In this document: in pieces, positions 6,701 to 43,670 of the stretch
Position numbering within the stretch: position 1 is the first letter of the stretch
How the letters are laid out: each line of letters begins with the position of its first letter
Assembly (NCBI GenBank): GCA_041649575.1
Contig: JBAZMW010000005.1
Location: forward strand, 38,734 to 102,733
Length of the DNA: 64,000 bases
Origin: Patescibacteria group bacterium
GTDB taxonomy: Bacteria > Patescibacteriota > Patescibacteriia > 2-01-FULL-39-33
Direction: 5' to 3'
Made by a program: the position numbers and the translations under genes
The notes under the pieces: generated by a model
Databases searched by the model: none
What the model was told of the DNA's origin: nothing
What the model saw: only the letters and a program-made list of their open reading frames with translations

Positions 6701-6757
6701 GCTAGCCGATGGTTGCTTACTGGGAAGCAGGTCTTCCAGTGAAGGGCCGATAGTCAT
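3725..6757 (-). CDS. pilB: Tandem-duplicated (fused) type IV pilus / type II secretion assembly ATPase PilB/GspE
   Basis: 1010 aa containing two complete GspE/PilB modules. Each has Walker A GPTGSGKTTTLY, an Asp box, Walker B with the His box (GEIRD..LVLST(V/I)HTN) and a tetracysteine zinc motif (CPRCK..CDYCNGIGYQGR; CPYCK..CSKCGNIGYKGR). A GspE_N-like domain is present at the N-terminus. Confidence 0.85.
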   Translation of the reverse strand: MTIGPSLEDLLPSKQPSASDDDSTQGQLQKKIQEITLKEKEREVENKAAIIGLPYINLIGFGISPDTLTTLPKETSLKLQVVCFLNNGSDIRLAAVGYNDEIKQLENELRDKFHTNVSTYLVSQHSLETAVRLYDSLPKIRKFVPGIEIKQADLERFENELKDFRELNEKINQVNISDTVTLIVATAIKIDASDIHIEAEEFGVTVRFRVDGVLQEAATVNKENWKKIISRLKIMAKVKINIEGRPQDGRFSIFLTKEKIEVRCSFLPTAYGESVVMRLLKSASVVLSFEDLGLMPQAYKILEQEIKKPNGLLLTAGPTGSGKTTTLYAILNKLNQPDVKIITLEDPIEYQLKGINQSQVDVKKGYTFANGLRSVLRQDPDIIMVGEIRDLETAEISIQSSLTGHLVLSTVHTNDAAGVIPRLVDMGVKPFFIVPSINAIIGQRLVRKLCPRCKIEHQLGEAEKETVEKILAVISPKSGVDIPTVLSRVYQAKPDGCDYCNGIGYQGRVGIYEIFVMNEEIKQLTSEGAPTFKILEQAIESGMITMLQDGVLKCLSGITSLEEVYRVIGKLDYVDALYDIVISQTIGRGIKISEAELARGAELSKDLTSVTRAIADTPTKEMINLVIAAALKSEAGDIHIEPTDTDVKIRFRIDGILHDIVDLPKEQYLPLLSNIKILAGFPTNVKKAAWDGRFAIFLKDAKMDSRVSIISGGYGETVVIRLLSSQASALDIKDLGMRPYSLSSLEKSMAKTKGIIITTGPTGSGKTTTLYSILNKLNRPDIKIITVEDPIEYHLEGIMQTQINTEQGYTFASAMRSLLRQNPNIMMIGEIRDPETAKVAIEAAMTGHLVLSTIHTNSAAGAIPRFVGLGIDRQMLANSIECSIGQRLVRKICPYCKVKTKLEPAVLKEVEEILSQISPKANIKIPQPLEFYQAKGCSKCGNIGYKGRLGLYEVLEMTPELQKLIQLEDVTNTDIEKAAVKNGAILVLQDGILKAVDGETTVEEVFRVAK

Positions 6758-24964: not shown

Positions 24965-25087
24965 AATTCAGCTCAGCCTTCAAAGGTTGGGCTGAATTGT
25001 TTTTGTTTGACACTGATATGGCCGGGTGATAAGATAATCTCGGTTCCTTCAACAGCCGTAATGATACGGCAGAAAGAGAGGTGCATC

Positions 25088-30046: not shown

Positions 30047-31801
30047 TTATTTTTTTTCTTTGATTTCCATTTCTATCTCTTCGATAAACTGGGCCACTTT
30101 TTTGCTACCTAGGTCGCCCTCACCACGTTTTCTAATAGCCACGGCGGCGGCGGATTCTTCTTTCTCTCCAACCACTAAAATGTAAGGCACCTTTTCTTTC
30201 TCCGCGTTTCTGATTCTTTTGCCCAGACTCTCGTCGCTGTTGTCCAATTCGACGCGGACATTTTTTTTGAATAATTGGTCTCTAACTTTTTGGCCATAAT
30301 TGTTGAATTTTTCGGAGACGGGGATAATAACTGCTTGCACCGGAGCCAGCCAGGTCGGGAAAGCTCCTGCATAGCGTTCGATCAAAAAGGCCATGGTGCG
30401 CTCCAGGCAGCCGATAGAAGAACGGTGGATGACGATGGGCCGCTCATTTTTCCCTTCTTTGTTGGTGAAAGTTAGGTCGAAGCGTTCCGGCATAACAAAG
30501 TCATATTGGACAGTAAAGGCAGTTTCTTCTTTGCCGCCGGTTCTTTTCATTTGGATATCGATTTTCGGGCCATAGAAAGCGGCTTCGTTGGCGGCCTCAT
30601 AGAACGGAGCCTTAACTTCTATCAGAACCTCGCGCAAAACATTTTCGGCAAAATCCCAGGCATCGTCGTCTTTATAATATTTTTTGGTGTCCGAACGGTC
30701 GCCCAGAGACAGACGATAGCGATAGTCCACGCCCTTTTCCAGGCCCAGCGTCCCATTGATAAAATCAATAAGGTCGAGAACTTCCTTGATGACTTGTTTG
30801 GCCTGGTCTTTGGCAGCGATGATGTGGGCGTCGGCCAAGCAAAACATGCGGACACGGGTCAGACCGGACAATTCGCCGCTTTTCTCGTAGCGATATTGAT
30901 GAGCGATTTCGCCGATGCGGTAAGGCAGCTCGCGGTAGCTGTGCTTTTCGGATTTATAAAACATGAAATGATGCGGGCAGGTCATGGGCTTGAGGATCAA
31001 TTCTTCCTCATCGATTTTCATCACCGGATACATGGTGTCTTTGTAGTAAGGATAGTGGCCGGATTTTTTGTAGAGATCGACTTTGGCCAAATCGGGAGTG
31101 ACCACATGGTGATAACCGCGTTTTAATTCTTCGTCTATAGTAAAGCGCTCAAGCTCTCTTTTGATGGTGGCGCCTTTGGGGCCGAAAGTCGGCAGGCCTT
31201 TGCCAACAAGCTCGGAAAAGACGAAGAGCTTTAAATCTTGGCCGATAACTCGGTGGTCTCTTTTTTTGGCTTCTTCTTGCAGTTTTAAATATTCGTCCAA
31301 TTCTTTTTGGGTGGCAAAAGCAGCGCCATAAATCCGCTGGAGCATTTTATTTTTCTCATTGCCTCGCCAATAAGCGCCAGCGACAGATAATAGCTTGAAA
31401 ATCTTAACTTCGCCGGTGGACTTCAAATGGGGACCACGGCACATATTGGAGAAGTCGCCTTGCTCATAGAAACCAACTTCTTTCTCATCCGCTTGTTTCA
31501 GTTCTTTAGCCAACTCCGCAGTGTAGGTGTATTTTTTGCTTTTTAGAAGTTTGATCGCCTCATCAATCGGCAACAGCTTTTTTTCAATTTTTAAATCTTC
31601 TTTGACAATTTTTTTCATTTCAGCCTCGATGTCGGCCAGGTCGTCTTCGGTCACTTGATTTTGGGCTTCAAAATCATGATAAAAGCCGTTTTCAATGGCC
31701 GGGCCGACACCGGGAACGGCGCCATAAAGTCGTTCAAGCGCCTGCATCATGATGTGTGCCGCGCTGTGATTGAGGATTTCTTGCTGGTCTTGGTTATTCA
31801 T
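30047..31801 (-). CDS. thrS: Threonine--tRNA ligase
   Basis: HSAAHIM editing-domain motif, class II catalytic core, C-terminal anticodon-binding domain. 584 aa with no TGS domain. Confidence 0.9.
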   Translation of the reverse strand: MNNQDQQEILNHSAAHIMMQALERLYGAVPGVGPAIENGFYHDFEAQNQVTEDDLADIEAEMKKIVKEDLKIEKKLLPIDEAIKLLKSKKYTYTAELAKELKQADEKEVGFYEQGDFSNMCRGPHLKSTGEVKIFKLLSVAGAYWRGNEKNKMLQRIYGAAFATQKELDEYLKLQEEAKKRDHRVIGQDLKLFVFSELVGKGLPTFGPKGATIKRELERFTIDEELKRGYHHVVTPDLAKVDLYKKSGHYPYYKDTMYPVMKIDEEELILKPMTCPHHFMFYKSEKHSYRELPYRIGEIAHQYRYEKSGELSGLTRVRMFCLADAHIIAAKDQAKQVIKEVLDLIDFINGTLGLEKGVDYRYRLSLGDRSDTKKYYKDDDAWDFAENVLREVLIEVKAPFYEAANEAAFYGPKIDIQMKRTGGKEETAFTVQYDFVMPERFDLTFTNKEGKNERPIVIHRSSIGCLERTMAFLIERYAGAFPTWLAPVQAVIIPVSEKFNNYGQKVRDQLFKKNVRVELDNSDESLGKRIRNAEKEKVPYILVVGEKEESAAAVAIRKRGEGDLGSKKVAQFIEEIEMEIKEKK

Positions 31802-31944
31802 ATATTTTGTATTAATTTTAGAGTTTTTTTATGAATTGGTCAAATATTATAATTGTCAGAAAAGAAAAGCCTTGTTAAGATAATTATTGCTCGTTACGGA
31901 GCGCACTCTGCACGCTTGAGTCGAGTATGGCAGCGTCTACTCTG

Positions 31945-31990
31945 GCAGCGCGCACCAAGGGATGGGGTTTTCGATGAGAGAATCCCATCA
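31945..31990 (+). repeat. Boundary copy of the GC-hairpin repeat family, followed by a T-run
   Basis: CCAAGGGATGGGG..TCCCATC plus ATTATTTTTG. Preceded by a GGAGCGCACTCTGCACGC-type motif like the array units. Confidence 0.5.
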
Positions 31991-32037
31991 TTATTTTTGT
32001 TTAAATTTAGATATTTAAAAATTTTTAATTTTTAGTA

Positions 32038-32066
32038 TTGACAAAAATATTAATATATGTTAGGAT
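32038..32066 (+). promoter_or_regulatory. Putative promoter of the 226-aa orphan gene, with a ~130-nt leader
   Basis: TTGACA, 17 nt, TAGGAT. The leader contains the palindrome ATGACGCGTCGTCAT. The RBS GGTAGGAG precedes the ATG at 32196. Confidence 0.3.
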
Positions 32067-32195
32067 ATGGGGTCAATGACGCGTCGTCATCTGACGGGAC
32101 AGGCAACTGTGTTGTCCTGGCCAAAGCGAGGGCGGTTTGAGTCATTGAGGCTTAAATCGCAAGTGAGTATTTCAACAAGGTAGGAGTAACTAGTC

Positions 32196-32876
32196 ATGGC
32201 GAAAGTCAAGCCGGAAGTCGAGCCGGAAGTCAAGTCGGGAGAATCGAAATCGAAGGTAGTGAGAGTGAAAGTGGAGGGGGTTTACCCAATCCTCATGAAT
32301 CCCATGACCGAGGCCACGCTCGACAGCTTGATCACGGGCAATCGCCTGCCGCCGACCAAGGATTTGGCGTTCGAGGAGGTCGCGAGCAGGAAGATTTACC
32401 GTGAAGGCGGCGAGCCCGATGGCGCTATCGGTATTCCCGTGGAGAATCTGTGCTCCTGTCTGGTGCGGGCGGGACGCGAAGTCAAGAATGGCAAGAAGCA
32501 GATCAGCACGGCGGAAAGCACCACGCTGTTCTCATTTCTCTCCATTCGCGGCGAGTTCCTGCCGTTCACCAACGATCTGACCCGGCACGGCGACGGCAAG
32601 GGTTGGGTTGTCGACAAACGTCGCGGTTGCCTGCACGACAAGGGCAAATCCACGGCGGTCGGCATCCTGCGGCCGAAATTCCCCGTCTGGGCATTCGAGT
32701 TCGTCATGGACCTCGACTTGACCGAGATCGACGAGGGCGTCGTGCGGAAGCTTGTCGAGGTCGCGGGCAAGAAAGTCGGCCTGGGCGATTTCCGGCCCAC
32801 CTGCAAGGGGCCGTTCGGTCGGTTCCAGGTCGTGAGCTGGGAAGAGGCCAAGAAAGAAGTTCCGGCCGCGGCCTAG
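32196..32876 (+). CDS. Hypothetical protein (226 aa), first gene of the hairpin-array island
   Basis: GC-rich ORF with a good RBS and no motif recognised by me. Immediately followed by the hairpin repeat array. Confidence 0.55.
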   Translation: MAKVKPEVEPEVKSGESKSKVVRVKVEGVYPILMNPMTEATLDSLITGNRLPPTKDLAFEEVASRKIYREGGEPDGAIGIPVENLCSCLVRAGREVKNGKKQISTAESTTLFSFLSIRGEFLPFTNDLTRHGDGKGWVVDKRRGCLHDKGKSTAVGILRPKFPVWAFEFVMDLDLTEIDEGVVRKLVEVAGKKVGLGDFRPTCKGPFGRFQVVSWEEAKKEVPAAA

Positions 32877-32949
32877 CTCCGGTGTACATCATGTAACACG
32901 GCTACCCTGTCACGTGGGGTTTTCCAACCTCGTGCCAGGCACGCCGCAC

Positions 32950-34990
32950 CATGGGGCGGGAGAGCAGCAATGTTCTCCCGCCAGCACTTATACATTATTA
33001 TCAATGCGTGCCGATGCCACCAAAGGCACGGCTTGGTCCGGTGGCGTCCGCTGCTGCAATGAGCTGCATGGGGTGGGAGTTCGCAAGAATTCCCGCCAAC
33101 TAATCAATGCGTGTTATAATGAAAATAATAAATATTGATTAGTACATTCTTCTGCGTGTGGTGTTGTTTCGCTCGGTTGCGTAGAGCGTCGCATCGCATG
33201 GTCGACCTCACCACGGGGCGAGGGTTCATCGCAATCCTCGCCGACTAATCAGTGATTATTACGGTTTAATAATTAGTGATCAGTTCTTTTTCACAGTCCT
33301 TGGTGCGGCTAAGCTCCGCTCCGCGCAGTCCGCTCTGCTGTTGTTTGCCAGGGGGCGGGAGAGCAGAGATGTTCTCCCGCCAGAGTGTATCACCCATTTT
33401 CCCAACTGGCCAAGGCGTGGCCCGGCGGTGTGGGCAATGGTTCGGCTCGGGGCGGGAGTCCATCGCGACTCCCGCCAGCTAATCAATGGTTGTTAAAAAA
33501 TTTAGTAATTATTGATTAGTTCGTTTATAAATCATGATGTGGCTGGCCGTCGCATGTCTTAGTTGCGTATCGTGTAGCCGCGCTTTCCCTGGGGCGAGGA
33601 TTGAAATACATCCTCGCCAGCTAATCAATGTCCATTAATTAATTAGTGGTTATTGATTAGTACCTTTTCACTTTGACTCAGCTAGCCGCCGTAGCGCGGA
33701 GTAAGCTGCAGTGGGGCTCACCCCAGCTATGTTGAGCTCGCCATGGGGCGGGGATGGGAAACTGTCTCCGCCAAAACTACTATCACCGTGTCGTTGGGTC
33801 GGCTTCGGCTACCTTTGATCCGGCGAACCGGCGCAGAGCGTGGGGCGGGGATTGTAACAAATCCCCGCCAACTAATCAGTGTGTATTATGCAAATAGTAA
33901 ATATCGATTAGCTCTTTCTGGTCCTAGCATTCTTGGCCGCCGTGGTGTGAGGCACTGCAAGACGGAGCGGAGCTGCGCACGGGGCGGGAGGTAGCAATAC
34001 TCTCCCGCCAATATCTACCAAACACTTCTCAATGGCAGGGCTTTCCGGCGCGTAGTTCAGCCCCGCCAGGCGAAGCGTTCTGTTGCAAGGGGCGGGGGTT
34101 CAGTGATGTTCTCCCGCCGTACCTTTTGCTTTTTAGGCCGCCCAGAGCAGTCAGCGGTAGAGCCTGGTCCTCTGTGGCAGTCCATGGGCGGGAGTCCTCA
34201 CCCGGCTCCCGCAACTATTTATTGGCGTTTGTTCCTCGGCGGAGCTACGCAGCCTGCCGCATAGTTCGGCCAGGTGTAGCGACGCACTCCCTGGGGCGGA
34301 GGTCGGTAGTCATGATCTCCGCCGACTAATCAGTGTTCATAATAATTTGTGATTAATGATTAGTTCATTTGTTAGACGGTTATGCTCAGGCGCAGTTCCG
34401 CGGAGCAGAGTATAGCTCGGCAGACACCGGCGTACTTGTCCATGGGGCGGAGACGGGAAACTGTTTCCGCCGAGCGATCAACCAGCTTCGGCTGTCAGAA
34501 AAGGATAATCGGTATGACTGGTGGTATGGGCATGCACAAACATGGCACGAGCGGTCATGTGCATAATGACCAGCATTTCACTGGCAAGAAGGGCGGCAAG
34601 CGTGCTGAGCGGAAAGGAAAGACGCACAAACAGCGTCGCCTGAACCGCGGGACGCACAAGAACAGGTTCAAGGAAGACTAGCTGACATTAGGCCATGGTG
34701 CCGCGGAGCAAACATCTCTCCGGCATTGCGGGCTGTGGCGCGGGGCGGAAATCGGCAACGGTTTCCGCCATTAATCAATGTTTATTAAGAATTTAGTAAT
34801 TATTGATTAGTTTTAGTTCTTTCGGCAAAGCTGAGTAAAGCTGCCTGTTGTCCGCCGACGCACGGGGCGGGAGTTCGCAAGAATTCCCGCCAAGCACATC
34901 TCATCTTTGGCGGCATCGTTGGGCGCAGTATGGCTCGGCATGCTTTGCCAGAGTGCGGCGCGGAACGGAGATCGGTAACGGTCTCCGTTA
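32950..34990 (+). repeat. Array of 16 compound hairpin repeat units (GC stem-loop GGCGGGAG-N9-14-CTCCCGCC, 7 of them followed by an AT-rich hairpin with CTAATCAATG/CATTGATTAG arms)
   Basis: GC hairpins start near 32953, 33070, 33215, 33352, 33449, 33591, 33745, 33842, 33981, 34089, 34186, 34294, 34444, 34742, 34864 and 34964. All are in the same orientation, preceded by CCAWGG/CACGG. Loops vary. Stems show compensatory changes. No ORF over 2.2 kb except a 55-aa candidate. Confidence 0.8.
34514..34681 (+). CDS. Candidate small basic His-rich protein (55 aa) inside the repeat array
   Basis: MTGGMGMHKHGTSGHVHNDQHFTGKKGGKRAERKGKTHKQRRLNRGTHKNRFKED. SD-like AAGGA upstream. Occupies the one long (about 300 nt) gap between hairpins. 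Confidence 0.3.
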   Translation: MTGGMGMHKHGTSGHVHNDQHFTGKKGGKRAERKGKTHKQRRLNRGTHKNRFKED

Positions 34991-35013
34991 TTATATTTTT
35001 AATAAATTTATTG

Positions 35014-35042
35014 TTGACAATTTTAATATTTTTTGTTAATAT
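35014..35042 (+). promoter_or_regulatory. Near-consensus sigma70 promoter upstream of the helicase gene
   Basis: TTGACA (35014-35019), a 17-nt AT-rich spacer, TAATAT (35037-35042). The leader carries a 9-bp hairpin CAGGCCAAA/TTTGGCCTG. Confidence 0.5.
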
Positions 35043-35150
35043 ATGGTGTCAGGCCAAAATCAATAACAAGCAGTTCTTTGACACTTTGGCCTGTGAGAAT
35101 ATAGGAAATTGAAGAAGCGAAGTAAAACCAGGCGAGAAGGAAGACAAATC

Positions 35151-36938
35151 ATGAAACATCCGAAACATCTGGACCTTTGGAGTTGTTTCCCGCATGACTG
35201 TTATCCAAATATCTTGGATAATCAGAGGGACGCTCTCCGGGTCATCGAGCAGGAAGGCGGTTGCGCTCTATTGCAACTGCCGACCGGCTCAGGCAAGACA
35301 GCAGTGGGGTACGCTTTTCTCAAGGCCGTCTTGAAGAGGGCTGAGGGGCCGGTGTACTATGTCGTTCCCACCAAGACGCTGGTGGAGCAGGTCAGAAGGC
35401 TCCACCCCGACGTCAAGATCATATTTGGTCGAAACGAATACTCATGTCTGTTCTACCCCGATCAGGAGCTGAAGGCCGACGAAGTGCCTTGCTCGATGCT
35501 GCACGATTGCCCGCATCGCGTGGACCAGGAAACTGGCCAGACCGCTGTGCCCGGCGTCAAGCCCTGTCCTTATTTGCAGAAGAAGTGGGAGGCGAGCCAA
35601 GGCGGTATCGTGGTTTGCACTACGGCGTTCTTTCTCTTCACCCACTTGTTCGCCAGCGAAGACGCCAAGCCGGCAGCGCTGGTGATCGACGAAGCCCATG
35701 GCATTGCTCATACGGTTCGCGGTTGTCTCTCCTACGAGATTACCGACTACCATCTTGGGCGGGCGGTGGAGCTACTACGGCCAGTGGACAACGAACAGGC
35801 CGAGCGACTTGACGCTTTCTTGCGGACGATGGTTCGTATCATCAAGAAGAAGGCGTCTGGCGAGCGGCAGATCATCGAGGATGAGGAGGTCGCCAAGCTG
35901 CTGGATAAGCTCAAGCAGATCAACATCACGCGACTGGGAGAAAAGGTGCGCCAGGCGATTAGGCAGGGAGTAATCGACGCCAAAGCGGAACGCGAAACCC
36001 TGCGTCGGCTGGAGATTGTCTTACGCGACTTGTCGCATTATGCCCGATCGCTCGAATACTCCCGGCCTAACGAGAAGCGTAACGCCCTCAACTACACCTA
36101 TGCGTTTTGGAGCCAGGAGCGCGCCGAAGGCGAGCGGGTGAAGTACCGTCTGTTCATCAAGTGCTACTATGTGGCGCCGCTCATACGGCGGATGTTGCCG
36201 GAGATGACTGTGGCTTACTCGGCGACCATCGGCGATCCCGAAGTGTTCGGTTTCGAGACTGGCATTGAGGCGCCGTTTCACAGCTTCGGTTCGGACTTCC
36301 CGGTTGGCAAAACGCAGATTTTTGTGCCGACCGATACGCCGAATTTGGCCGTCAACGTTCGTGGTCGTCAGGATCGCACCAGGGCGCTAAGGAGGATCGC
36401 CAAGGCCTGCCGCCGTTTTGCCGATCAAGGCAGGCGGTCGCTGGTGGTGGTGATCTCCAACGAGGAACGCGCTAAGTTCCTGACGCTCGCCGGCGAGGAA
36501 GGCGTCGCAGCCGTCAGCTACGGTAATGGCGTCAAGCCAAAAGACGCGGCCCTGAAGTTCAAGGAGGGTGAGGGTGATGTCTTGGTTGGCACAGCGGCCA
36601 ATTACGGAGAGGGCTTTGACTTACCCAAGGGCATCGCTCCGGTCATCTTCTTTCTCCGGCCAGGATTTCCGCATCCGCACGATCCGGCGACAGTGTTTGA
36701 GGAGAGGCGATTCGGCGGCATGCGTTGGCGGATCTGGAATTGGCGTGTGATGATGGAGGCCTTGCAGGTGCGGGGTCGCAACATCAGAAGCGCCGAGGAT
36801 GTGGGCGTCTGCTTCTTCATTTCCCAGCAGTTCCGGCGGTTCGTTTTCGCCGCCCTGCCCGACTGGTTGCAGCCGGCGTATTGTGGCGATAAGGACTGGG
36901 AGGAGTGCCTTGAAGAGGCGGAGCGATTGCTTTCCTAG
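35151..36938 (+). CDS. XPD/Rad3/DinG-family Fe-S DNA helicase (superfamily 2, DEAH)
   Basis: Walker A LQLPTGSGKT, motif Ia YYVVPTKTL, four Cys between Ia and II (C-SCLF..PCSM..DCPH..KPCPY) as in the XPD/DinG Fe-S domain, motif II LVIDEAHG, motif VI QVRGRNIRSAEDVGV. Start at ATG 35151 (RBS GAAGGAAG); the track start at 35109 is TTG. Confidence 0.8.
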   Translation: MKHPKHLDLWSCFPHDCYPNILDNQRDALRVIEQEGGCALLQLPTGSGKTAVGYAFLKAVLKRAEGPVYYVVPTKTLVEQVRRLHPDVKIIFGRNEYSCLFYPDQELKADEVPCSMLHDCPHRVDQETGQTAVPGVKPCPYLQKKWEASQGGIVVCTTAFFLFTHLFASEDAKPAALVIDEAHGIAHTVRGCLSYEITDYHLGRAVELLRPVDNEQAERLDAFLRTMVRIIKKKASGERQIIEDEEVAKLLDKLKQINITRLGEKVRQAIRQGVIDAKAERETLRRLEIVLRDLSHYARSLEYSRPNEKRNALNYTYAFWSQERAEGERVKYRLFIKCYYVAPLIRRMLPEMTVAYSATIGDPEVFGFETGIEAPFHSFGSDFPVGKTQIFVPTDTPNLAVNVRGRQDRTRALRRIAKACRRFADQGRRSLVVVISNEERAKFLTLAGEEGVAAVSYGNGVKPKDAALKFKEGEGDVLVGTAANYGEGFDLPKGIAPVIFFLRPGFPHPHDPATVFEERRFGGMRWRIWNWRVMMEALQVRGRNIRSAEDVGVCFFISQQFRRFVFAALPDWLQPAYCGDKDWEECLEEAERLLS

Positions 36939-36989
36939 TATCACGGACTGGCTCGCCATGGCTGCGCCTTGCTTGCCACTGCCTGCCGT

Positions 36990-37486
36990 CGTCCGCCAAG
37001 GGGCGGAGATCTGGTCCATCCGGGTCTCCGCCACATTCTTTGTTTTCAAACGTCGCTCGGCAACGTTGGGTCTTCAATGGCTTACCGCTGTTGCGCGTCG
37101 CAAGGGGCGAGGATGGTCTTTGACTAATTCTCGCCATTCTACACTTGTCAAAGAGATTCTTTGGCAGATGTGGTCTTTATGAGGTAGCGTATTCTTCAGT
37201 TGAGCTCAGTCTAGCTCGGTACAGCTGAGCGCCGCAGCCATTTCCAAGGGGCGGGGGTTGGGCTTGCCCAAATCTCCGCCAACGCTTATCTTCTCGGCAA
37301 TGCTTGGCACAGTATCCCAGTGTTGTGCGTCGCTGAGTTAGCCAAGGGATGGGACTGGTCAAACGGTCTCATCAAGATTATTTTTCTGGGCACGTCTCAG
37401 TATTCAATGGCCCGCTGCTGTTGAGTAGTGCAGAGCCCCCAGTCCAAGGGGCGGGAATCCATCGTGGTTCCCGTCGATTTTTTTTA
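36990..37486 (+). repeat. Second block of the GC-hairpin repeat family (5 copies) downstream of the helicase, ending in a T-run
   Basis: Copies near 37000, 37105, 37248, 37342 (variant GATGGGAC/GTCTCATC) and 37448. All are preceded by CCAAGGGG. The last is followed by TTTTTTTT. Confidence 0.7.
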
Positions 37487-37540: not shown

Positions 37541-39247
37541 ATGTCTTACACCATAGAAAAAATCAAAAAGCAAATTATCGAACAGGTCTCTGGCGCCGTA
37601 GGCCAGAAAATCGATAAAAGCCAGCTGGAAGTGACGGTGCCGCCGGACGCCTCTTTAGGCGATTTGGCCGTGCCCTGTTTTTATCTGACCAAACTGCTGC
37701 GGCGTTCGCCCAACCAGATTGCCGACGAGCTGCAGGCCAGAATCCGTCCGACAGGACTGATCAAGTCGGTGCAAAATGTCGGGCCTTATTTGAATTTTTT
37801 TGTCAGTAGCGGAGTTTTTGGCAAGGAGGTTTTAAAAGAAATAGCCAGATTAAAAGATAAATACGGCCGCGGCAAATTAGGCGAAGAAAAAGTAATGATT
37901 GAGTTTTCCCAGCCCAATACCCACAAAGAATTTCATATCGGCCACGTGCGTAATGCGGTTTTGGGTGATAGTTTGGTGAAGCTTAATAAGTTCGCCGGAC
38001 GCAAAGTGGTGGCGGTCAATTATATTGGCGATATCGGCGCTCATGTGGCCAAGTGTTTGTGGGCGCTTAAAAAATTTCACCAGCAGGAAGAACCGCCAAA
38101 GAATAAAGGCAAATTTTTAGGTCAGATTTATACCGAAGCGGTGAGAAAAATAGAAAGCAATCCCCAGTTCAAGCGAGAGGCCGATGAGGTTTTGCAAAAA
38201 TTGGAGCGAGGCGACAAAAAGATGCTGGCTTTGTGGCAGAAAACCAGGAAGTGGAGTTTGGTGGAGTTTGAGGCGATTTACAAAACGCTGGGCATCAAGT
38301 TTGATCAAATTTTTTATGAGAGCGAGGTGGAGCAGCCGGGCAAAAAGATCGTTGAGAAGCTGCTAAAAGACGGCTTGGCCGAAAAATCGGAAGGTGCCGT
38401 AATTATCAATTTGGAAAAATACAATTTAAAAAATTTTTTACTGCTCAAATCCGACGGCTCATCGCTTTATTCCACCAAAGACCTGGCCTTGGCCGAGCTC
38501 AAATTCAAAAAATTCAAAATTGACAAAAGCGTGGTGGTAGTCGACAGCCGACAAACTTTTTATTTGCAGCAACTATTCAAAACCCTGGAAGTCATCGGCT
38601 TCAAAAAAAAGATGGAACATATCGCTTACGAGTTCGTCACCTTAAAGGATGGCGCCATGTCTTCGAGAGCGGGCAACGTGGTGTTGTTTGAAGATTTTTT
38701 TGAAGAAATGAAAGCTCTGGCCAAAAACGAAACCAAGAAAAGGCACGAGAATTGGCCGGCCAAAAAAATCAGCCAAGTGGCCCGACAGCTGACTTTATCG
38801 GCTGTTAAATTCAATATGCTGAAAATCAGCAACAGCAGCATCATTGTTTTTGACAAAAATGAAGCTTTGAGTTTTGAGGGCTTTACCGGCCCTTACCTGC
38901 AATACACTTTAAGCCGCATTGCCAGTTTGCTAAAAAAGAGCCAGACCGTTGTCGCCGCCAACATTGATTACAGTAAATTAAACAGTGACTTGGAAAAAGA
39001 AATTATTTTGAAGCTGGCGGAGCTGCCGGAGGTTATTAAGCGGGCGACAGCAACCAGCGAACCCAGCGAACTGGCCAAGTATTTATTTGATTTGTCCAGG
39101 CTGTTTTCTAATTTTTATCAGAGTTTGTCGATTTTGACCGCCGAAGAAAAAACCAAAAAAGCGCGATTGACGCTAGTGGTGGCGGTCAGGCAGGTTTTGG
39201 TTAACGGTTTGAATCTGTTGGGCCTGGAAGCACTGGAGCAAATGTAG
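37541..39247 (+). CDS. argS: Arginine--tRNA ligase
   Basis: HIGH motif HIGHVRNAVLGD, class I core, DALR anticodon-binding C-terminus ending in ..EQM. 568 aa. Confidence 0.9.
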   Translation: MSYTIEKIKKQIIEQVSGAVGQKIDKSQLEVTVPPDASLGDLAVPCFYLTKLLRRSPNQIADELQARIRPTGLIKSVQNVGPYLNFFVSSGVFGKEVLKEIARLKDKYGRGKLGEEKVMIEFSQPNTHKEFHIGHVRNAVLGDSLVKLNKFAGRKVVAVNYIGDIGAHVAKCLWALKKFHQQEEPPKNKGKFLGQIYTEAVRKIESNPQFKREADEVLQKLERGDKKMLALWQKTRKWSLVEFEAIYKTLGIKFDQIFYESEVEQPGKKIVEKLLKDGLAEKSEGAVIINLEKYNLKNFLLLKSDGSSLYSTKDLALAELKFKKFKIDKSVVVVDSRQTFYLQQLFKTLEVIGFKKKMEHIAYEFVTLKDGAMSSRAGNVVLFEDFFEEMKALAKNETKKRHENWPAKKISQVARQLTLSAVKFNMLKISNSSIIVFDKNEALSFEGFTGPYLQYTLSRIASLLKKSQTVVAANIDYSKLNSDLEKEIILKLAELPEVIKRATATSEPSELAKYLFDLSRLFSNFYQSLSILTAEEKTKKARLTLVVAVRQVLVNGLNLLGLEALEQM

Positions 39248-39964: not shown

Positions 39965-40073
39965 GGGAATTGTAAAAAAGGTGTCCGCGAGTCGGGCGTC
40001 TTTTTTGTTTAATTAAAAATTGACTAAAACAGCAGAAATTGTTAAGATAAGAGCAATTTTTAAATTAAAAATT

Positions 40074-43000
40074 ATGAACAATATAATTGCTGACAAAGAA
40101 AAAGAAATTCAAAAATTTTGGCAAGATAATCAAATTTTTGAAAAGTCATTGGCGCAAACCAAAAACGGCCAGCGTTACAGTTTTTATGATGGCCCGCCGT
40201 TTGCCACCGGCACCCCGCATTACGGGCACCTAGTGGCCAGTCTTATGAAAGACGTGGTGCCGCGGTTTTGGACGATGCGCGGGCATTATGTGGAGCGGCG
40301 TTGGGGCTGGGATTGCCACGGACTGCCGATAGAAAACATGGTGGAGAAAGAGCTGGGTTTTAAGAATAAAAAAGACATTGTCGAATATGGCATTGCCAAC
40401 TTCAACGAGTACTGCCGCAGCAAAGTTTTGACGTATGTGGCGGAATGGAAAAAAACCATCAAACGATTCGGCCGCTGGGCAGACATGGAAAACCCCTACA
40501 AGACCATGGACGTGGATTATATGGAAAGTATTTGGTGGGTTTTCAGACAGTTGTGGGACAAAGGCTTAATTTATGAGGGCTACCGCTCAATGCATATTTG
40601 TCCCAGGTGCGAAACGACTCTAAGTCAGTCGGAAGTGAGTGAGGGCTATCGCGACGTTGAAGATCTTTCCGTCACTTGGAAATTCAAAGTGCTCCCACCC
40701 CCCCATTCCCCCCCTCGGGCAGAGGGGGAAGATATTCCCACCTATTTATTGGCCTGGACAACAGTGCCTTGGAGCACCCTGAGCACCATGGGCCTGGCCA
40801 TTGGCGCTGATTTTGATTATGTCAAAGCTAAAGTAAAAAACGAACACCTTATTTTTATCAAAGATAAACTGGAAGAAGTAATGGCCGGTGTTAGCAATTA
40901 TGAAATTATTGAAGAGTTTAAGGGCAGCAAGATGATTGGCTGGGAATATGAGCCGGTCAGCGATATTTTCAAAAATTTGCCGGAAGTGAAAAATAAAAAA
41001 AATGCCTATCATGTTTTTGCCGCCGATTATGTGGAAGCGACCGAGGGCACGGGCATCGTGACGATTAACGGCTCATATGGCGAGGTGGATTTGCTCTCCG
41101 CCCAGCAAAATGATTTGCCGGTACTGATGGATGTGAAGCTGGATGGCAGGTTTGCCGATTTTGCCGGTGCTTATGCCGGCCTGGATGTCAAAGACGCCCA
41201 GGTCAAGTTTGTGGCTGATATGGAAAAGAAGGGTTTGGTTTGGAGCAGTGAGAAATACACCCATTCCTATCCCCATTGCTGGCGCTGTGATACCCCGCTT
41301 TTAAATTATTCGACTTCCTCCTGGTTTGTCAAAGTGACAAAAATCAAAAACCAGGCGCTGGCTTTGGCCAAACAGATCAATTGGTCGCCAGCGCATATCA
41401 AGGAAGGCCGTTTTGGCAAGTGGCTCGAAGGCGCACGCGACTGGTCGATTAGTCGTCAGCGGTTTTGGGCGAGCGTGATTCCGATTTGGAAATGCGTTTG
41501 TGGCGAGATGAAGGTCTTGGGTTCGGTCGACGAGTTATATAAAAGCTCTAGCGATAACCCCCCGCAGATTACTAAGGTTATTTTTGTCAGGCACGGTGAA
41601 GCCGAAAACAATATTAGCCATATTAATTCCAACTCCTTGGATAAATATCCATTAACCAAAAAGGGCGCTGGACAAGTAAGTGAATCGGCGGCAAAAATAA
41701 AAGAAATTTTGGCAGAATCTTCGACAAAAGCCGTAATTTTCAGTTCTCCTGTCTTAAGAACTAAAGAAAGCGCGGAAATAATTTCTCATTATTTGGGATT
41801 GAAATATGAATTATCCGACGAAATTAAAGAGGTTGATTTTGGTATCGTGGAAGGAAAACAACTGGATGAATTAATGGATGAATATAATCCTTTGCCGGCG
41901 GATAAAAAGTGGAATTTTAAAAATGGTCAAACCGGAGAATCTCAAAAAGATATACAAGAACGGATGTATAAATGGTTCAAAAAAGTTTTAGAGGAAAATA
42001 AAAACAAAATAATAATCATAATTTCTCATGGCGACCCCCTTATGGCGTTGATAAATAAGATTAAAGGCAAGACAATAGAGGAACATGTTTTATCTTTAGA
42101 GAGCGATTCATATATTCAAAAAGGAGAAGTCAGAGTTGCTTATGTTATGAATGAAACTAAATTGGAAATAGATTTACATAAGCACAGCATCGATAGGGTG
42201 GTTTTAAAATGCGAGAAGTGCGGAAACGAGATGAGTCGTATTCCCGATGTTTTGGACACCTGGTTTGATAGCGGCTCTATGCCTTATGCGCAGCAGCACT
42301 ATCCGTTTGCCAATAAGGAAAAATTTGAAGCCGGCTTTCCGGCGCAGTTCATTGCCGAAGGCGTGGATCAGTGTCGCGCTTGGTTTTACTATCTGCACGT
42401 CAACGCCGCCGCCATTACAAACAAAATCGCCTACGAAAACGTCATTGCCAACGGTATTGTACTCGCCCAGGACGGTCGCAAAATGAGTAAAAAATTACAA
42501 AACTATCCGGAGCCAGAAGCGTTGATGGAAAAGTATGGCGCCGATGCCCTGCGTTTTTATTTATTATCCGCGCCGGTGATGGCGGCCGAGAATTTGAATT
42601 TCTCCGAAGCCGGAGTAAAAGAAGCGATGCAGAAAGTGGTGATGCTTTTAAATAACATTTTGAATTTTTATAAGTTGTATGCTGATGTCATCCCGACTGA
42701 AGCTGTGGGTCGAGTGGAAGGATCCCTTAGAAAAGAAAGGGATTCCTCCGTTACTTCGCCAGCTGGCGACTCCGGTCGGAATGACAATGTGCTGGATCAG
42801 TGGCTCTTGGCCAAATTAAATTTATTAATTAAAGAGGTGGCTGGAGCGATGGAGGCGTATGACCTGCCGCGGGCGGTGCGTCCGATCGCCGGATTTATAG
42901 ATGAATTTTCCACTTGGTGGCTAAGGCGTTCGCGTGACAGATTTAAGGGGGCAGACGAAAAAGATAAACAGCAAGCCCTGGCTGTTTTTGGGCATACGCT

Positions 43001-43670
43001 TTTAGAATTATCAAAAGTGATGGCGCCGTTTACTCCGTTTATCGCCGAGCAGGTTTATAAGGAAGTGGGCCCGTCCAGCCAGGGTGGCCGGGCAAGCGGT
43101 GAGCAGGAATCAGTGCATTTAGAAAAATGGCCTGAAGAATCAGAAATATTAATTAAGGAAGAGGTTATTAAACAAATGGAACAGGTGAGAAAAATCGTAG
43201 AATTAGGCTTGGCCAAACGGGCCGAAGCGGGAATTAAGATTCGGCAGCCGCTCGGAAACTTTCAATTTTCAATTTTCAATTTTCAAAATAACGCCGACCA
43301 GTATTTAAAAATTATCGCCGACGAACTTAATGTAAAAAAAGTTGTTTATAACAAAAATCTCGGCCAAGAAATAGAGTTAGACACGGAGATTACCAAGGAG
43401 CTGAAGCTGGAGGGCGTGGCGCGAGAATTGGTTCGCACTATTAATAATTTGCGCAGAGAGGCCGGGCTGACAATTCAAGATCAGATTAAAATTGACTGGC
43501 AATCGGAGGGCGAAACAATCAGGCAGGTTTTTGCGGTTGAAAGTTTAGTCGAGGAGTTGAAAAGGGCAACGATTACCAAGGAATTTTTAGACAAGGACAA
43601 CCAGGGCCAAGTGGCGGAAATCAATGGTGAAAAAATTAAGCTGGAAATAAACAGGACCATACCTTCTTAA
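40074..43670 (+). CDS. ileS: Isoleucine--tRNA ligase with an inserted histidine-phosphatase (PGAM-like) domain
   Basis: HIGH (PHYGHL) and KMSKKLQNYP motifs. About 230 extra residues between the two halves of the zinc knuckle (WKCVCGE ... KCEKCGNEM) carry RHGEAENN, SSPVLRTKESAE, EVDFGIVEG and ISHGDPL. Start placed at MNNIIADKEKE. Confidence 0.9.
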   Translation: MNNIIADKEKEIQKFWQDNQIFEKSLAQTKNGQRYSFYDGPPFATGTPHYGHLVASLMKDVVPRFWTMRGHYVERRWGWDCHGLPIENMVEKELGFKNKKDIVEYGIANFNEYCRSKVLTYVAEWKKTIKRFGRWADMENPYKTMDVDYMESIWWVFRQLWDKGLIYEGYRSMHICPRCETTLSQSEVSEGYRDVEDLSVTWKFKVLPPPHSPPRAEGEDIPTYLLAWTTVPWSTLSTMGLAIGADFDYVKAKVKNEHLIFIKDKLEEVMAGVSNYEIIEEFKGSKMIGWEYEPVSDIFKNLPEVKNKKNAYHVFAADYVEATEGTGIVTINGSYGEVDLLSAQQNDLPVLMDVKLDGRFADFAGAYAGLDVKDAQVKFVADMEKKGLVWSSEKYTHSYPHCWRCDTPLLNYSTSSWFVKVTKIKNQALALAKQINWSPAHIKEGRFGKWLEGARDWSISRQRFWASVIPIWKCVCGEMKVLGSVDELYKSSSDNPPQITKVIFVRHGEAENNISHINSNSLDKYPLTKKGAGQVSESAAKIKEILAESSTKAVIFSSPVLRTKESAEIISHYLGLKYELSDEIKEVDFGIVEGKQLDELMDEYNPLPADKKWNFKNGQTGESQKDIQERMYKWFKKVLEENKNKIIIIISHGDPLMALINKIKGKTIEEHVLSLESDSYIQKGEVRVAYVMNETKLEIDLHKHSIDRVVLKCEKCGNEMSRIPDVLDTWFDSGSMPYAQQHYPFANKEKFEAGFPAQFIAEGVDQCRAWFYYLHVNAAAITNKIAYENVIANGIVLAQDGRKMSKKLQNYPEPEALMEKYGADALRFYLLSAPVMAAENLNFSEAGVKEAMQKVVMLLNNILNFYKLYADVIPTEAVGRVEGSLRKERDSSVTSPAGDSGRNDNVLDQWLLAKLNLLIKEVAGAMEAYDLPRAVRPIAGFIDEFSTWWLRRSRDRFKGADEKDKQQALAVFGHTLLELSKVMAPFTPFIAEQVYKEVGPSSQGGRASGEQESVHLEKWPEESEILIKEEVIKQMEQVRKIVELGLAKRAEAGIKIRQPLGNFQFSIFNFQNNADQYLKIIADELNVKKVVYNKNLGQEIELDTEITKELKLEGVARELVRTINNLRREAGLTIQDQIKIDWQSEGETIRQVFAVESLVEELKRATITKEFLDKDNQGQVAEINGEKIKLEINRTIPS

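What the first reader, a model, noticed from the sequence alone, without database searches (positions are those of the whole stretch)
31945..37486. GC-rich island between thrS and argS: orphan 226-aa gene and XPD/DinG-like Fe-S helicase embedded in ~22 copies of a compound hairpin repeat
thrS ends at 31801 and argS starts at 37541, both in AT-rich backbone. The 5.6 kb between them is GC-rich. It contains a hairpin copy plus T-run, a promoter, a 226-aa protein with no recognisable motif, 16 hairpin units spanning about 2.2 kb with no credible ORF, a near-consensus promoter, a 595-aa XPD/DinG-family helicase, and 5 more hairpin units ending in a T-run. This much structured non-coding DNA in an otherwise compact genome, tied to a helicase and an unknown protein, does not match any element class I know (CRISPR, REP/BIME, integron attC, retron, iterons). 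Candidate explanations are a non-canonical RNA-guided or RNA-structured defence or mobile module, an array of processed small RNAs, or a centromere-like binding array for the 226-aa protein.
Basis: seen in the sequence. Interest (0 to 1): 0.85.

Follow-up and report, generated by a model that had tools for sequence, protein, structure and literature searches.

The report
VIPR guide-RNA array with helicase
The island is a VIPR system, a non-CRISPR RNA-guided DNA-targeting system first described in 2026, here in a Patescibacteria chromosome with one small RAMP protein, 22 guide-RNA genes and an XPD-like helicase, so it is a real and elaborate member of a known class, not a new class.

Summary
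There are 22 same-strand hairpins, a 226-aa gene, a 595-aa Fe-S helicase and sigma-70-like promoters between thrS and argS. The hairpin occurs nowhere else in the 64 kb window.

Each hairpin is preceded by about 9-13 pentanucleotide repeats (n-G-Y-N-N). I found 14 such tracts, against 0.17 expected by chance.

The 226-aa protein is not an orphan. Its family profile matches the solved SUSP1 Vipr protein end to end (E=1.5e-10). It keeps the G-loop and thumb residues that hold the GGY anchor, and its model has a Cas7/Csm3-like RAMP fold.

The same tract scan recovers exactly the four published vrRNAs of phage SUSP1. Relatives in 23 of 28 Patescibacteria loci carry the same helicase and vrRNA arrays.

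This is therefore a VIPR system (Viral Interference Programmable Repeat, bioRxiv 2026) of a helicase-associated Patescibacteria clade.

Four points remain open:
- The targets: my searches found none above chance.
- The pairing rule: the first G of the anchor is not conserved here.
- The role of seven AT-rich palindromes that punctuate the array.
- The role of a conserved 55-aa basic ORF inside the array.

Verdict: a new member of a known kind, of moderate interest.

The parts
31853..31881 (+). promoter-like site (TTGTCA-17-TAAGAT, TG-extended) upstream of vrRNA u0
31909..31989 (+). vrRNA u0: about 10 pentanucleotide repeats plus tail hairpin 31961-31989, followed by a T-run. Lone guide upstream of vipr, as in phage SUSP1
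32038..32066 (+). promoter-like site (TTGACA-17-TAGGAT) for vipr and probably the downstream array
32196..32876 (+). vipr: 226-aa RAMP protein (GenBank MFA5029932.1). G-loop G195-F210, thumb hairpin about 138-162
32908..32982 (+). vrRNA u1 (tract, internally degenerate, plus hairpin 32955-32982)
33005..33097 (+). vrRNA u2 (hairpin 33072-33097)
33100..33142 (+). AT-rich palindrome 1 (CTAATCAATG...ATTGATTAG), about 19-bp AU hairpin
33155..33242 (+). vrRNA u3 (hairpin 33217-33242)
33243..33285 (+). AT-rich palindrome 2
33302..33381 (+). vrRNA u4 (hairpin 33354-33381)
33414..33476 (+). vrRNA u5 (hairpin 33451-33476)
33479..33519 (+). AT-rich palindrome 3
33541..33618 (+). vrRNA u6 (hairpin 33593-33618)
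33621..33660 (+). AT-rich palindrome 4 (20-nt arms, 85% complementary)
33680..33772 (+). vrRNA u7 (hairpin 33747-33772)
33787..33869 (+). vrRNA u8 (hairpin 33844-33869)
33872..33911 (+). AT-rich palindrome 5
33926..34009 (+). vrRNA u9 (hairpin 33983-34009)
34034..34118 (+). vrRNA u10 (hairpin 34091-34118)
34136..34212 (+). vrRNA u11 (hairpin 34187-34212; repeat register shifted by 1)
34238..34323 (+). vrRNA u12 (hairpin 34295-34323)
34324..34365 (+). AT-rich palindrome 6
34389..34471 (+). vrRNA u13 (hairpin 34446-34471)
34514..34681 (+). small ORF, 55 aa, pI 11.4, with a ribosome-binding site; conserved at 63% identity in L003. Possible extra accessory gene
34697..34769 (+). vrRNA u14 (hairpin 34744-34769)
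34770..34811 (+). AT-rich palindrome 7
34824..34891 (+). vrRNA u15 (hairpin 34866-34891)
34912..34989 (+). vrRNA u16 (hairpin 34964-34989 plus T-rich run; terminator-like end of array A)
35014..35042 (+). promoter-like site (TTGACA-17-TAATAT) for the helicase and array B
35151..36938 (+). accessory gene: 595-aa XPD/Rad3/DinG-family SF2 helicase. Walker A GSGKT46, DEAH180, four invariant Cys (99, 114, 120, 139) for a 4Fe-4S cluster
36950..37032 (+). vrRNA u17 (hairpin 37002-37032)
37054..37135 (+). vrRNA u18 (hairpin 37106-37135)
37183..37280 (+). vrRNA u19 (hairpin 37250-37280)
37296..37373 (+). vrRNA u20 (hairpin 37348-37373, T-rich tail)
37389..37475 (+). vrRNA u21 (hairpin 37450-37475 plus T8 run; terminator-like end of array B)

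Best explanation
The locus is a chromosomal VIPR (Viral Interference Programmable Repeat) system of a helicase-associated clade found in Patescibacteria.

Shown here:
- The 226-aa gene encodes a Vipr-family RAMP protein.
- The 22 'compound hairpin units' are vrRNA genes. Each has a G-poor linker, about 9-13 pentanucleotide repeats with a fixed G-Y anchor and variable flanking bases, a conserved CCA-N-GG junction and a 9-bp covarying 3' hairpin cap.
- The 595-aa XPD-like Fe-S helicase is the clade's conserved accessory gene.

Inferred from the published SUSP1 system:
- The + strand is transcribed from promoters at 31853, 32038 and 35014, giving one single-guide transcript and two long transcripts (vipr plus 16 guides; helicase plus 5 guides).
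- The long transcripts are cut into RNAs of about 65-100 nt.
- Vipr protomers polymerise along each RNA, one per repeat. They hold the G-Y anchor in the G-loop/thumb pocket and present the variable dinucleotides.
- The filament pairs those dinucleotides with double-stranded DNA while skipping one target base per repeat, which forms a gapped R-loop.

Inferred by analogy with CasDinG and Cas3:
- The helicase is loaded at that R-loop and unwinds or strips the targeted DNA. This would turn binding into interference against phages or other mobile elements of the host.
For: Protein:
- A 35-sequence family profile matches PDB 36pp 'SUSP1 Vipr protein' at E=1.5e-10 over positions 8-193 of 204. The single sequence gives E=0.0085.
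- SUSP1 residues D177, W178, R179 and R138, which hold the GGY anchor, align to D198, F199, R200 and R159. All four are conserved in the family.
- The AlphaFold2 model has pLDDT 87.8. Its best solved-structure matches are Csm3/Cas7 RAMPs (prob 1.0, E about 1e-6). Its best viral matches are about 200-aa phage proteins, one named RAMP.

RNA:
- In register with the hairpin, position 3 is G in 61% and position 4 is Y in 88% of 264 blocks, while the other positions carry no information.
- There are 14 tracts in 3,128 nt of non-coding DNA, against 0.17 +/- 0.41 in shuffles. G-Y autocorrelation peaks at lags 5, 10 and 15 only there.
- Of 15 + strand tracts in the 64 kb window, 14 lie in the locus.
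- Positive control: the same scan on the SUSP1 locus finds exactly one tract upstream and three downstream, as published.
- The tail hairpin is 99% paired. Eight of 9 pairs show compensatory changes, and no shuffle out of 500 does as well.
- 196 of 198 cells pair as + strand RNA, against 174 if read from the - strand.

Context:
- The helicase lies within a few kb of vipr in 23 of 28 Patescibacteria loci. It is absent from 32 other genome loci and 80 viral loci.
- Related loci carry up to 34 tracts and 44 further tail matches next to vipr or the helicase.
- In L003 the vrRNAs sit, singly or in pairs, between TTGACA promoters and hairpin/T-run terminators.

Literature: VIPR systems have vipr, a vap gene and vrRNAs of 9-16 YNNGG or related YNNNG repeats with a structured tail. 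Types III-V have nuclease or helicase vaps.
Against: - There are no expression or binding data for this locus.
- The first G of the GGY anchor is not conserved (34% G), so the pairing rule may differ from the published one.
- No target was found. Local searches under 0-3-nt skip and NNN rules equal the shuffled controls.
- Four viral-contig scans and one metagenome scan gave only two hits. Both are at chance level, and one lies in a cellular ABC-transporter gene.
- The tail is a plain hairpin, whereas the SUSP1 clade has a pseudoknot.
- Most units lack their own promoter or terminator, so a processing step must be assumed.
- The published type number (III, IV or V) cannot be assigned, because the figures and tables are not held.
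- The helicase's role at an R-loop is analogy only.
Confidence: 0.87

Rival explanations
1. It is a VIPR system by anatomy, but the host uses it to silence its own genes or a resident element (programmable repression), not to defend against invading phages. In this reading the helicase remodels or resets the complexes.
For: The characterised type II systems act by transcriptional silencing. The locus sits among housekeeping genes (aaRS genes, rpoB/C, FtsH) and not in a defence island or prophage. No phage target was found.
Against: No self-target above chance was found in the 64 kb window under any skip rule. The paper links enzyme-bearing types to antiviral roles. The system is GC-richer than its flanks in 17 of 19 related loci, and thrS/argS do not flank any related locus, which suggests a mobile island and not a fixed regulator.
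Confidence: 0.08
2. It is a degenerate or minimal type IV CRISPR-Cas system. The RAMP would be a Csf2-like backbone, the helicase a CasDinG, and the hairpin array a highly diverged CRISPR array.
For: The helicase matches the PADLOC typeIV_DinG (IV-A) profile at E=1.8e-38 over its full length. The 226-aa protein has a Cas7-like RAMP fold.
Against: There are no direct repeats with spacers. Tandem Repeats Finder and the repeat finder detect only the hairpin families, at irregular spacings of 67-272 nt. The stems covary and are not identical. The 226-aa protein has no PADLOC, Pfam or NCBIfam cas hit, and no Csf1, Csf3 or Cas6 is present. TIGR03117 Csf4 scores only 19.5 bits against a cutoff of 400. 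tblastn finds no plasmid CasDinG. The helicase has an intact 4-Cys cluster domain like XPD.
Confidence: 0.02
3. The hairpins are generic REP/BIME-like or terminator-like palindromes that accumulated in an intergenic island and have no functional link to the two genes.
For: The stems are GC-rich, and some are followed by T-runs.
Against: The hairpin is confined to this locus within the 64 kb window. All copies are on one strand. Each is preceded by a 5-nt periodic tract. The same pairing of tract and tail flanks vipr homologues in dozens of unrelated genomes.
Confidence: 0.01
4. The array acts at the DNA level as a centromere-like or iteron-like binding platform for the 226-aa protein.
For: There are many clustered repeats next to a small basic protein. 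The AT-rich palindromes have arms conserved in sequence, as operators do.
Against: The 22 G-U pairs make the stems complete only as + strand RNA. The protein is homologous to an RNA-binding RAMP that was solved bound to vrRNA. In L003 the units are promoter-terminator cassettes.
Confidence: 0.02

Closest known systems
VIPR type II (Escherichia phage SUSP1 and Pseudomonas fulva prophage; bioRxiv 10.64898/2026.04.26.720920 and 10.64898/2026.04.26.720927)
   Same: Both have a homologous Vipr RAMP of about 200 aa with the same G-loop (GxGD-aromatic-RP) and thumb arginine. Both have guide genes made of tandem pentanucleotide repeats capped by a structured 3' tail. In both, one guide lies upstream of vipr and an array lies downstream of the accessory gene. 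Neither has cas genes or a CRISPR array.
   Different: - Here the anchor is nGY, not GGY.
- The tail is a simple covarying hairpin, not a pseudoknot.
- There are 22 guides, not 4.
- The accessory gene is an XPD-like helicase, not a small DNA-binding Vap1.
- The host is a Patescibacteria chromosome, not a phage.
- AT-rich palindromes and a 55-aa ORF interrupt the array.
Enzyme-associated VIPR types III-V (same preprint; vap genes predicted to be nucleases or helicases, some in cellular genomes)
   Same: It is a cellular VIPR with an enzymatic accessory gene. The alternative repeat consensus YNNNG is mentioned for non-type-II systems.
   Different: I could not assign a type, because the figures and tables with type definitions are not held. 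The paper's text does not mention Patescibacteria, Fe-S helicases or palindrome-punctuated arrays.
Type IV-A CRISPR-Cas (Csf2/Cas7 backbone plus CasDinG/Csf4 helicase)
   Same: It works alike in outline: a RAMP filament on a guide RNA paired with a DinG/XPD-superfamily helicase, with no nuclease and no adaptation genes. One type IV-A DinG profile matches the helicase over its full length.
   Different: There is no CRISPR array and no Csf1, Csf3 or Cas6. The guide is non-contiguous. The helicase fails the Csf4 equivalog model, has no BLAST-level relative among plasmid CasDinG genes, and keeps four cluster cysteines.
XPD/Rad3/FANCJ/DinG family of 5'-3' Fe-S helicases
   Same: The profile matches XPD, FANCJ and archaeal XPD at E about 1e-16. 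Walker A, DEAH and four invariant cysteines are present between motifs Ia and II.
   Different: It is always encoded next to vipr and vrRNA arrays in Patescibacteria. It scores far below the cut-offs of the repair-helicase equivalog models.

Membership tests
VIPR system | Encodes a Vipr protein, a minimal single-RRM RAMP homologous to SUSP1 Vipr | tested here: met
   Family profile against PDB 36pp_D gives E=1.5e-10 over the full length. The AlphaFold2 model (pLDDT 87.8) has Csm3/Cas7 RAMPs as its top structural matches. phrog_4652 matches at E=4.7e-15.
VIPR system | G-loop and thumb residues that sequester the GGY anchor (SUSP1 D177, W178, R179, R138) | tested here: met
   They align to D198, F199, R200 and R159. 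R159 and R200 are invariant and F199 is at least 90% conserved in 35 sequences. The G1 contact H17 aligns to N35, so it is not conserved.
VIPR system | vrRNA genes flanking vipr: at least 4 (typically 9-16) tandem YNNGG or related (YNNNG, NNNGG) pentanucleotide repeats | tested here: met
   There are 22 tracts of about 9-13 repeats with G2 at 61%, Y3 at 88% and G1 at only 34-35%, which is YNNNG-like. 14 strict tracts were found against 0.17 expected. The scan recovers the 4 published SUSP1 vrRNAs.
VIPR system | Conserved structured 3' tail capping the repeat tract | tested here: met
   A 9-bp hairpin is 99% paired, with 8 of 9 pairs covarying. The covariance model finds 44 more tails beside vipr or the helicase in related loci. 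A pseudoknot was not tested.
VIPR system | Minimal locus of vipr plus an accessory (vap) gene, with no CRISPR array and no other cas genes | tested here: met
   Only vipr, a 55-aa ORF and the helicase lie between thrS and argS. No CRISPR-type repeats were found. The helicase co-occurs with vipr in 23 of 28 clade loci.
VIPR system | vrRNAs are expressed as RNAs of about 100 nt and co-purify with Vipr | not testable with these tools
   Indirect evidence only: G-U pairs fix the RNA strand, and L003 has promoter-terminator cassettes.
VIPR system | Variable NN dinucleotides specify a DNA target with a 1-nt skip | tested here: inconclusive
   No match above shuffled controls locally. There were 0, 0, 0 and 1 hits in viral contigs and 1 in metagenomes, all at chance level.
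Type IV CRISPR-Cas | CRISPR array of near-identical direct repeats separated by spacers | tested here: not met
   Tandem Repeats Finder and the repeat finder detect none. Hairpin stems differ and covary, and spacing is irregular at 67-272 nt.
Type IV CRISPR-Cas | Multi-subunit effector (Csf1, Csf2, Csf3, with or without Cas6/Csf5) | tested here: not met
   The 226-aa protein has no PADLOC or NCBIfam cas hit, and no further RAMP genes are present in the locus.
Type IV CRISPR-Cas | CasDinG/Csf4 helicase | tested here: inconclusive
   The PADLOC typeIV_DinG (IV-A) profile gives E=1.8e-38. TIGR03117 scores 19.5 bits against a cutoff of 400. tblastn finds no plasmid CasDinG. PDB profile hits are XPD and FANCJ.
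REP/BIME-type dispersed palindromes | Copies dispersed genome-wide in intergenic regions and at gene ends | tested here: not met
   Every + strand covariance-model hit in the 64 kb window lies in the locus. The rest of the genome was not available.
XPD/Rad3/DinG Fe-S helicase family | SF2 motifs plus a four-cysteine 4Fe-4S domain inserted in helicase domain 1 | tested here: met
   GSGKT46, DEAH180, and Cys99/114/120/139 invariant in 18 sequences. Pfam DEAD_2 and Helicase_C_2 match. XPD/FANCJ match at E about 1e-16.

The most novel reading that the evidence does not exclude
The Patescibacteria helicase-linked clade may be a mechanistically distinct VIPR variant. Its anchor would be reduced to G-Y, so three bases per repeat may be read or a different skip rule may apply. 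Its guides would be released from long polycistronic precursors at AT-rich, roughly 20-bp hairpin modules. Interference would run through a recruited XPD-like Fe-S helicase. That would make it a functional counterpart, and possibly an evolutionary bridge, between VIPR and type IV CRISPR-Cas (RAMP filament plus DinG-family helicase).
Probability: 0.25. Interest if true: 0.7.

Novelty: new member of a known kind. Interest (0 to 1): 0.45.

Why it matters
VIPR is a newly described way of reading DNA with RNA, using non-contiguous pairing. It has been proposed as older than CRISPR. The published experiments concern small phage-borne type II systems.

This locus shows the same building blocks used on a large scale in the chromosome of a reduced-genome Patescibacteria cell. 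There are 22 guides here and up to 34 tracts in relatives, always coupled to an Fe-S helicase.

It offers a concrete, compact test case (about 5.6 kb) for three open questions:
- What an enzymatic accessory gene adds to a binding-only guide complex.
- Whether the code tolerates a shortened anchor.
- How multi-guide arrays are transcribed and processed.

It also points to a defence or conflict system in Patescibacteria that would not be recognised as a CRISPR-Cas system.

Tried and rejected
- **Rfam:** nothing in the locus at gathering thresholds or at E<=1, so no hammerhead or other known RNA.
- **Tandem Repeats Finder:** it does not see the arrays, because the copies are too diverged.
- **Pfam, NCBIfam and PADLOC:** nothing for the 226-aa protein. 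Only PHROGs and the PDB sequence search gave the lead.
- **Foldseek against solved structures:** the library stops at April 2026 and holds no Vipr entry, so it shows only the RAMP fold. The afdb50 library was not available.
- **Target prediction with the published 1-nt-skip rule:**
  - All 22 guides were searched against the window and 142 loci under 0-3-nt skips and two NNN rules. The result equals order-shuffled controls.
  - u3, u13 and u12 gave no viral hit.
  - u19 (18 specified bases) gave one viral hit whose flanking dinucleotides match 2 of 4 bases.
  - u3 gave one metagenome hit inside an ABC-transporter ATPase on a cellular contig, also with a 2-of-4 extension.
  - All of these were treated as chance.
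- **Rejected readings:** CRISPR, REP/BIME, attC and DNA-level iterons (see the rival explanations).
- **AT-rich palindromes:** I looked for sigma-70 promoters in them and found none with both hexamers. Only a weak TG-N3-ATTA element is present.
- **Small ORF:** an HMM search across all loci finds it only in L003.
- **Synteny:** thrS and argS are not found flanking any related locus.
- **Link to the paper's seed proteins:** the cluster look-up did not provide UniProt accessions to connect relatives to them.

Full report
**1. What is there**

The window is a chromosomal segment of a Patescibacteria (CPR) metagenome-assembled genome. The 226-aa protein is GenBank MFA5029932.1, 'hypothetical protein WC518_04360 [Patescibacteria group bacterium]'. 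It lies on a 114-kb contig, and two assemblies of it are identical over 18 kb. The neighbours are housekeeping genes: hisS, tRNA-His, thrS, argS, ileS, rpoB, rpoC and ftsH.

Between thrS (30047-31801, -) and argS (37541-39247, +) lies a 5.6-kb block at 55% GC, against 46% for the rest of the window. All features in it are on the + strand:

| Coordinates | Feature |
|---|---|
| 31853 | promoter-like site |
| 31961-31989 | one hairpin unit ending in a T-run |
| 32038 | promoter-like site |
| 32196-32876 | 226-aa ORF |
| 32955-34989 | sixteen hairpin units |
| 35014 | promoter-like site |
| 35151-36938 | 595-aa helicase |
| 37002-37475 | five more hairpin units, the last ending in T8 |

**2. The hairpins are real and locus-specific**

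A strict pattern finds 16 copies in the locus and 1 elsewhere, against 0.4 expected. I aligned the 22 tails (A2) and counted a 9-bp stem.
- 99% of cells pair.
- 8 of 9 pairs show changes on both sides.
- 34 compensatory cells were seen, against 7.7 in shuffles, and no shuffle out of 500 did as well.
- Sliding the partner by one column drops pairing to 43-61%.
- 22 of the pairs are G-U. As a result 196 of 198 cells pair if the + strand is the RNA, but only 174 if the - strand is.

Selection therefore acts on an RNA structure made from the + strand. A covariance model built from the tails finds all 22 and nothing else on the + strand of the 64 kb window. Rfam has no match, even at E<=1.

**3.

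I read the sequence in 5-nt blocks backwards from each hairpin. The 50-65 nt upstream show a fixed phase.
- The third position of the block is G in 61% of cases.
- The fourth is a pyrimidine in 88%.
- The other three positions carry no information (264 blocks; unit-by-unit display).

Each unit has about 9-13 such repeats, some internally degenerate. A conserved C-C/G-A-N-G-G junction then runs into the stem.

A simple scan asked for 8 consecutive repeats with at least 14 of 16 anchor matches.
- It finds 14 tracts in the 3,128 nt of non-coding locus DNA, against 0.17 +/- 0.41 (maximum 2) in dinucleotide shuffles.
- The G-Y autocorrelation peaks at lags 5, 10 and 15 only there. It does not peak in the two coding regions or in the rest of the window.
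- Across the whole window, 14 of 15 + strand tracts fall in the locus.

**4. The 226-aa protein**

Pfam, NCBIfam and PADLOC are silent. PHROGs family 4652 matches at 4.7e-15. The PDB sequence search returns one chain, 36pp_D 'SUSP1 Vipr protein', at E=0.0085.

The family is large.
- 189 hits came from the indexed search. Nearly all come from unnamed metagenome assemblies, and the few that carry organism names are Patescibacteria/Paceibacterota/Parcubacteria or Pacearchaeota.
- A profile search of 1.84 billion representatives returned 6,410 clusters at E<=0.001 and 2,076 at E<=1e-10.

A 35-sequence profile (A1) matches SUSP1 Vipr at E=1.5e-10 over essentially its whole length. The C-terminal motif GLGDFRPxxxGPFGRF is the RAMP glycine-rich loop.

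The cryo-EM paper names the SUSP1 residues that hold the GGY anchor: D177, W178 and R179 in the G-loop and R138 in the thumb. These align to D198, F199, R200 and R159, all conserved in this family. H17, which contacts the first G, aligns to N35.

The AlphaFold2 model (pLDDT 87.8, pTM 0.82) has an RRM core, a beta-hairpin thumb and the G-loop.
- Its best matches among solved structures are Csm3/Cas7 subunits of type III and type VII effectors (prob 1.0, E about 1e-6, TM about 0.5). That library predates the Vipr depositions.
- Among viral models the three significant matches are 194-252-aa phage proteins, one annotated as a RAMP.

**5. What this corresponds to in the literature**

- A minimal RAMP (Vipr), usually one accessory gene (vap), and vrRNAs of about 100 nt.
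- Each vrRNA is made of 9-16 YNNGG repeats followed by a conserved structured tail.
- One Vipr protomer binds each repeat and sequesters GGY.
- The NN dinucleotides pair with double-stranded DNA while one target base per repeat is skipped.
- Seven types are reported. Alternative repeat consensuses are mentioned (NNNGG, YNNNG, NNNNG).
- Types III-V have vaps predicted to be nucleases or helicases, and a quarter of systems sit in cellular chromosomes.

As a positive control I fetched the SUSP1 locus (KT454805.2) and ran my tract scan on it. It returns exactly one tract upstream of vipr and three downstream of the second gene, all on the gene strand, as published. The window has the same layout on a larger scale: one guide upstream, then arrays downstream of vipr and of the accessory gene.

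**6. Related loci**

I fetched 60 genome loci and 80 viral loci that encode relatives.
- A homologue of the helicase (42-57% identity) lies within a few kb of vipr in 23 of 28 Patescibacteria loci. It usually lies downstream on the same strand.
- It lies in none of 32 loci from other phyla and none of 80 viral loci.
- Periodic tracts flank vipr almost everywhere. In Patescibacteria they form arrays of up to 34 (L006), 32 (L021) and 19 (L011) tracts.
- The tail model finds 44 further copies, all beside vipr or the helicase, in 15 of those loci. More distant loci use other hairpin sequences.
- In the closest long relative (L003, Vipr 54% identical) the guides sit, singly or in pairs, between canonical TTGACA-N17-TAnnnT promoters and tail-hairpin/T-run terminators. 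This is the best available indirect evidence that they are expressed as small RNAs.
- thrS and argS do not flank any related locus, and the block is GC-richer than its surroundings in 17 of 19 related loci. Both fit a horizontally moving island.

**7. The helicase**

It carries Pfam DEAD_2, Helicase_C_2 and ResIII, Walker A GSGKT46 and DEAH180. Four cysteines (99, 114, 120, 139) are invariant in 18 clade members, as expected for a 4Fe-4S domain.

A clade profile hits FANCJ and human and archaeal XPD at about 1e-16, and DinG at 3e-9.

- The best curated profile is PADLOC's type IV-A DinG (E=1.8e-38, full length, 130 bits).
- The NCBI Csf4 equivalog gives only 19.5 bits against a cutoff of 400.
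- tblastn against 72,556 plasmids finds no full-length relative and no gene annotated as csf4 or CasDinG.

I read this as an XPD/DinG-superfamily Fe-S helicase that is not an orthologue of canonical CasDinG. Its exact placement needs a phylogeny.

**8. How it most likely works**

Shown here:
- Homology of the protein.
- The anatomy and statistics of the guides.
- The RNA-level constraint on the tails.
- The conserved gene association.

Inferred from the SUSP1 work:
- Vipr polymerises on each guide, holds the G-Y anchor and presents the variable bases.
- The filament forms a gapped R-loop on matching DNA.

Inferred by analogy with CasDinG and Cas3:
- The helicase is recruited to that R-loop and makes binding destructive or disruptive for a mobile element.

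Transcription signals suggest three units: P31853 to u0 to a terminator; P32038 to vipr, u1-u16 and a terminator at u16; and P35014 to the helicase, u17-u21 and terminators at u20/u21. Most guides must therefore be released by processing.

**9. Open points**

(a) The first G of the anchor is only 34% G. The repeat is YNNNG-like, and the pairing rule may differ from the published one.

(b) I found no target.
- Local searches under six rules equal the controls.
- Four viral scans and one metagenome scan gave two exact hits at chance level. One lies in a cellular ABC-transporter gene, and both extend at only 2 of 4 further bases.
- Phages of Patescibacteria are poorly sampled and the scans need exact matches, so this says little either way.

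(c) Seven AT-rich palindromes of about 45 nt (CTAATCARTG-N20-ATTGATTAG) follow units u2, u3, u5, u6, u8, u12 and u14.
- They are locus-specific.
- They fold into 18-21-bp AU hairpins (z from -3.4 to -7.4).
- Their outer arms are invariant and their inner stems vary.
- They occupy the position that terminator-promoter modules hold in L003, and L011 has analogous elements.
- They could be RNase III-type processing sites, operator sites or compact transcription boundaries. No two-hexamer promoter is present in them.

(d) A 55-aa, very basic ORF with a ribosome-binding site (34514-34681) sits inside the array. It is 63% identical to an ORF at the same place in L003, but it was not found in other loci.

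**10. Verdict**

The finding is real and well observed. It is not a new class. It is a VIPR system, a class published in 2026, of a Patescibacteria clade whose accessory gene is an XPD-like Fe-S helicase.

I could not map it to a published type number because the figures and tables are not held. I file it as a new member of a known kind.

Its possibly new details are the reduced anchor, the palindrome-punctuated polycistronic arrays, the small basic ORF and the size of the arrays. These give it moderate interest and make it a good experimental test case.

Noticed in passing
window 34514-34681 (+); L003 9808-9981: A 55-aa, very basic (pI 11.4) ORF with a ribosome-binding site sits inside the guide array between u13 and u14. 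A 63%-identical ORF sits at the same place in the closest long relative, but it was not found in other clade loci. It may be an extra accessory protein.
   Followed up: partly
window 33100-33142, 33243-33285, 33479-33519, 33621-33660, 33872-33911, 34324-34365, 34770-34811: Seven locus-specific AT-rich palindromes (CTAATCARTG-N20-ATTGATTAG) fold into 18-21-bp AU hairpins. Their outer arms are invariant and their inner stems vary. They occupy the place of terminator-promoter modules in L003. Their function is unresolved: processing site, operator or transcription boundary.
   Followed up: partly
window units u1/u4, u2/u15, u7/u13: Non-adjacent guides share nearly identical tail hairpins, loops included, but have different repeat tracts. 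This suggests guides arise by duplication of a unit followed by change of the variable bases.
   Followed up: no
window 32983-33004, 33382-33413, 33773-33786, 36939-36949 and similar linkers: G-poor linkers of 15-25 nt precede the repeat tracts. Several contain TATCAC or TATCAA, which may be a 5' handle or processing signal.
   Followed up: no
window 35040-35058 / 35085-35103: A 19-nt inverted repeat lies in the 5' untranslated region of the helicase, just downstream of its promoter.
   Followed up: no
window 40020-43670 (+): The isoleucyl-tRNA synthetase (1216 aa) carries a histidine-phosphatase (His_Phos_1) domain inserted at residues 520-688, inside the catalytic domain.
   Followed up: no
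window 3725-6757 (-): A 1010-aa protein has two T2SSE (type II/IV secretion ATPase) stretches in one chain.
   Followed up: no
window 63357-63753: A 216-nt tandem repeat with 1.8 copies at 83% identity lies near the end of the window.
   Followed up: no
window 11621-12952 (-), 15395-16603 (-), 25007-26188 (+): Other GC-rich stretches (55-57% GC) hold long ORFs with no Pfam match, so the VIPR island is not the only compositionally odd part of this window. The one periodic G-Y tract found outside the locus (11912-11951) lies inside the first of these ORFs.
   Followed up: no
L006, L021, L022, L011 (related Patescibacteria loci): Some relatives carry very large arrays of 15-34 periodic tracts, spread on both sides of the helicase. 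In L006, L021 and L022 the arrays and helicase lie upstream of vipr on the opposite strand.
   Followed up: partly
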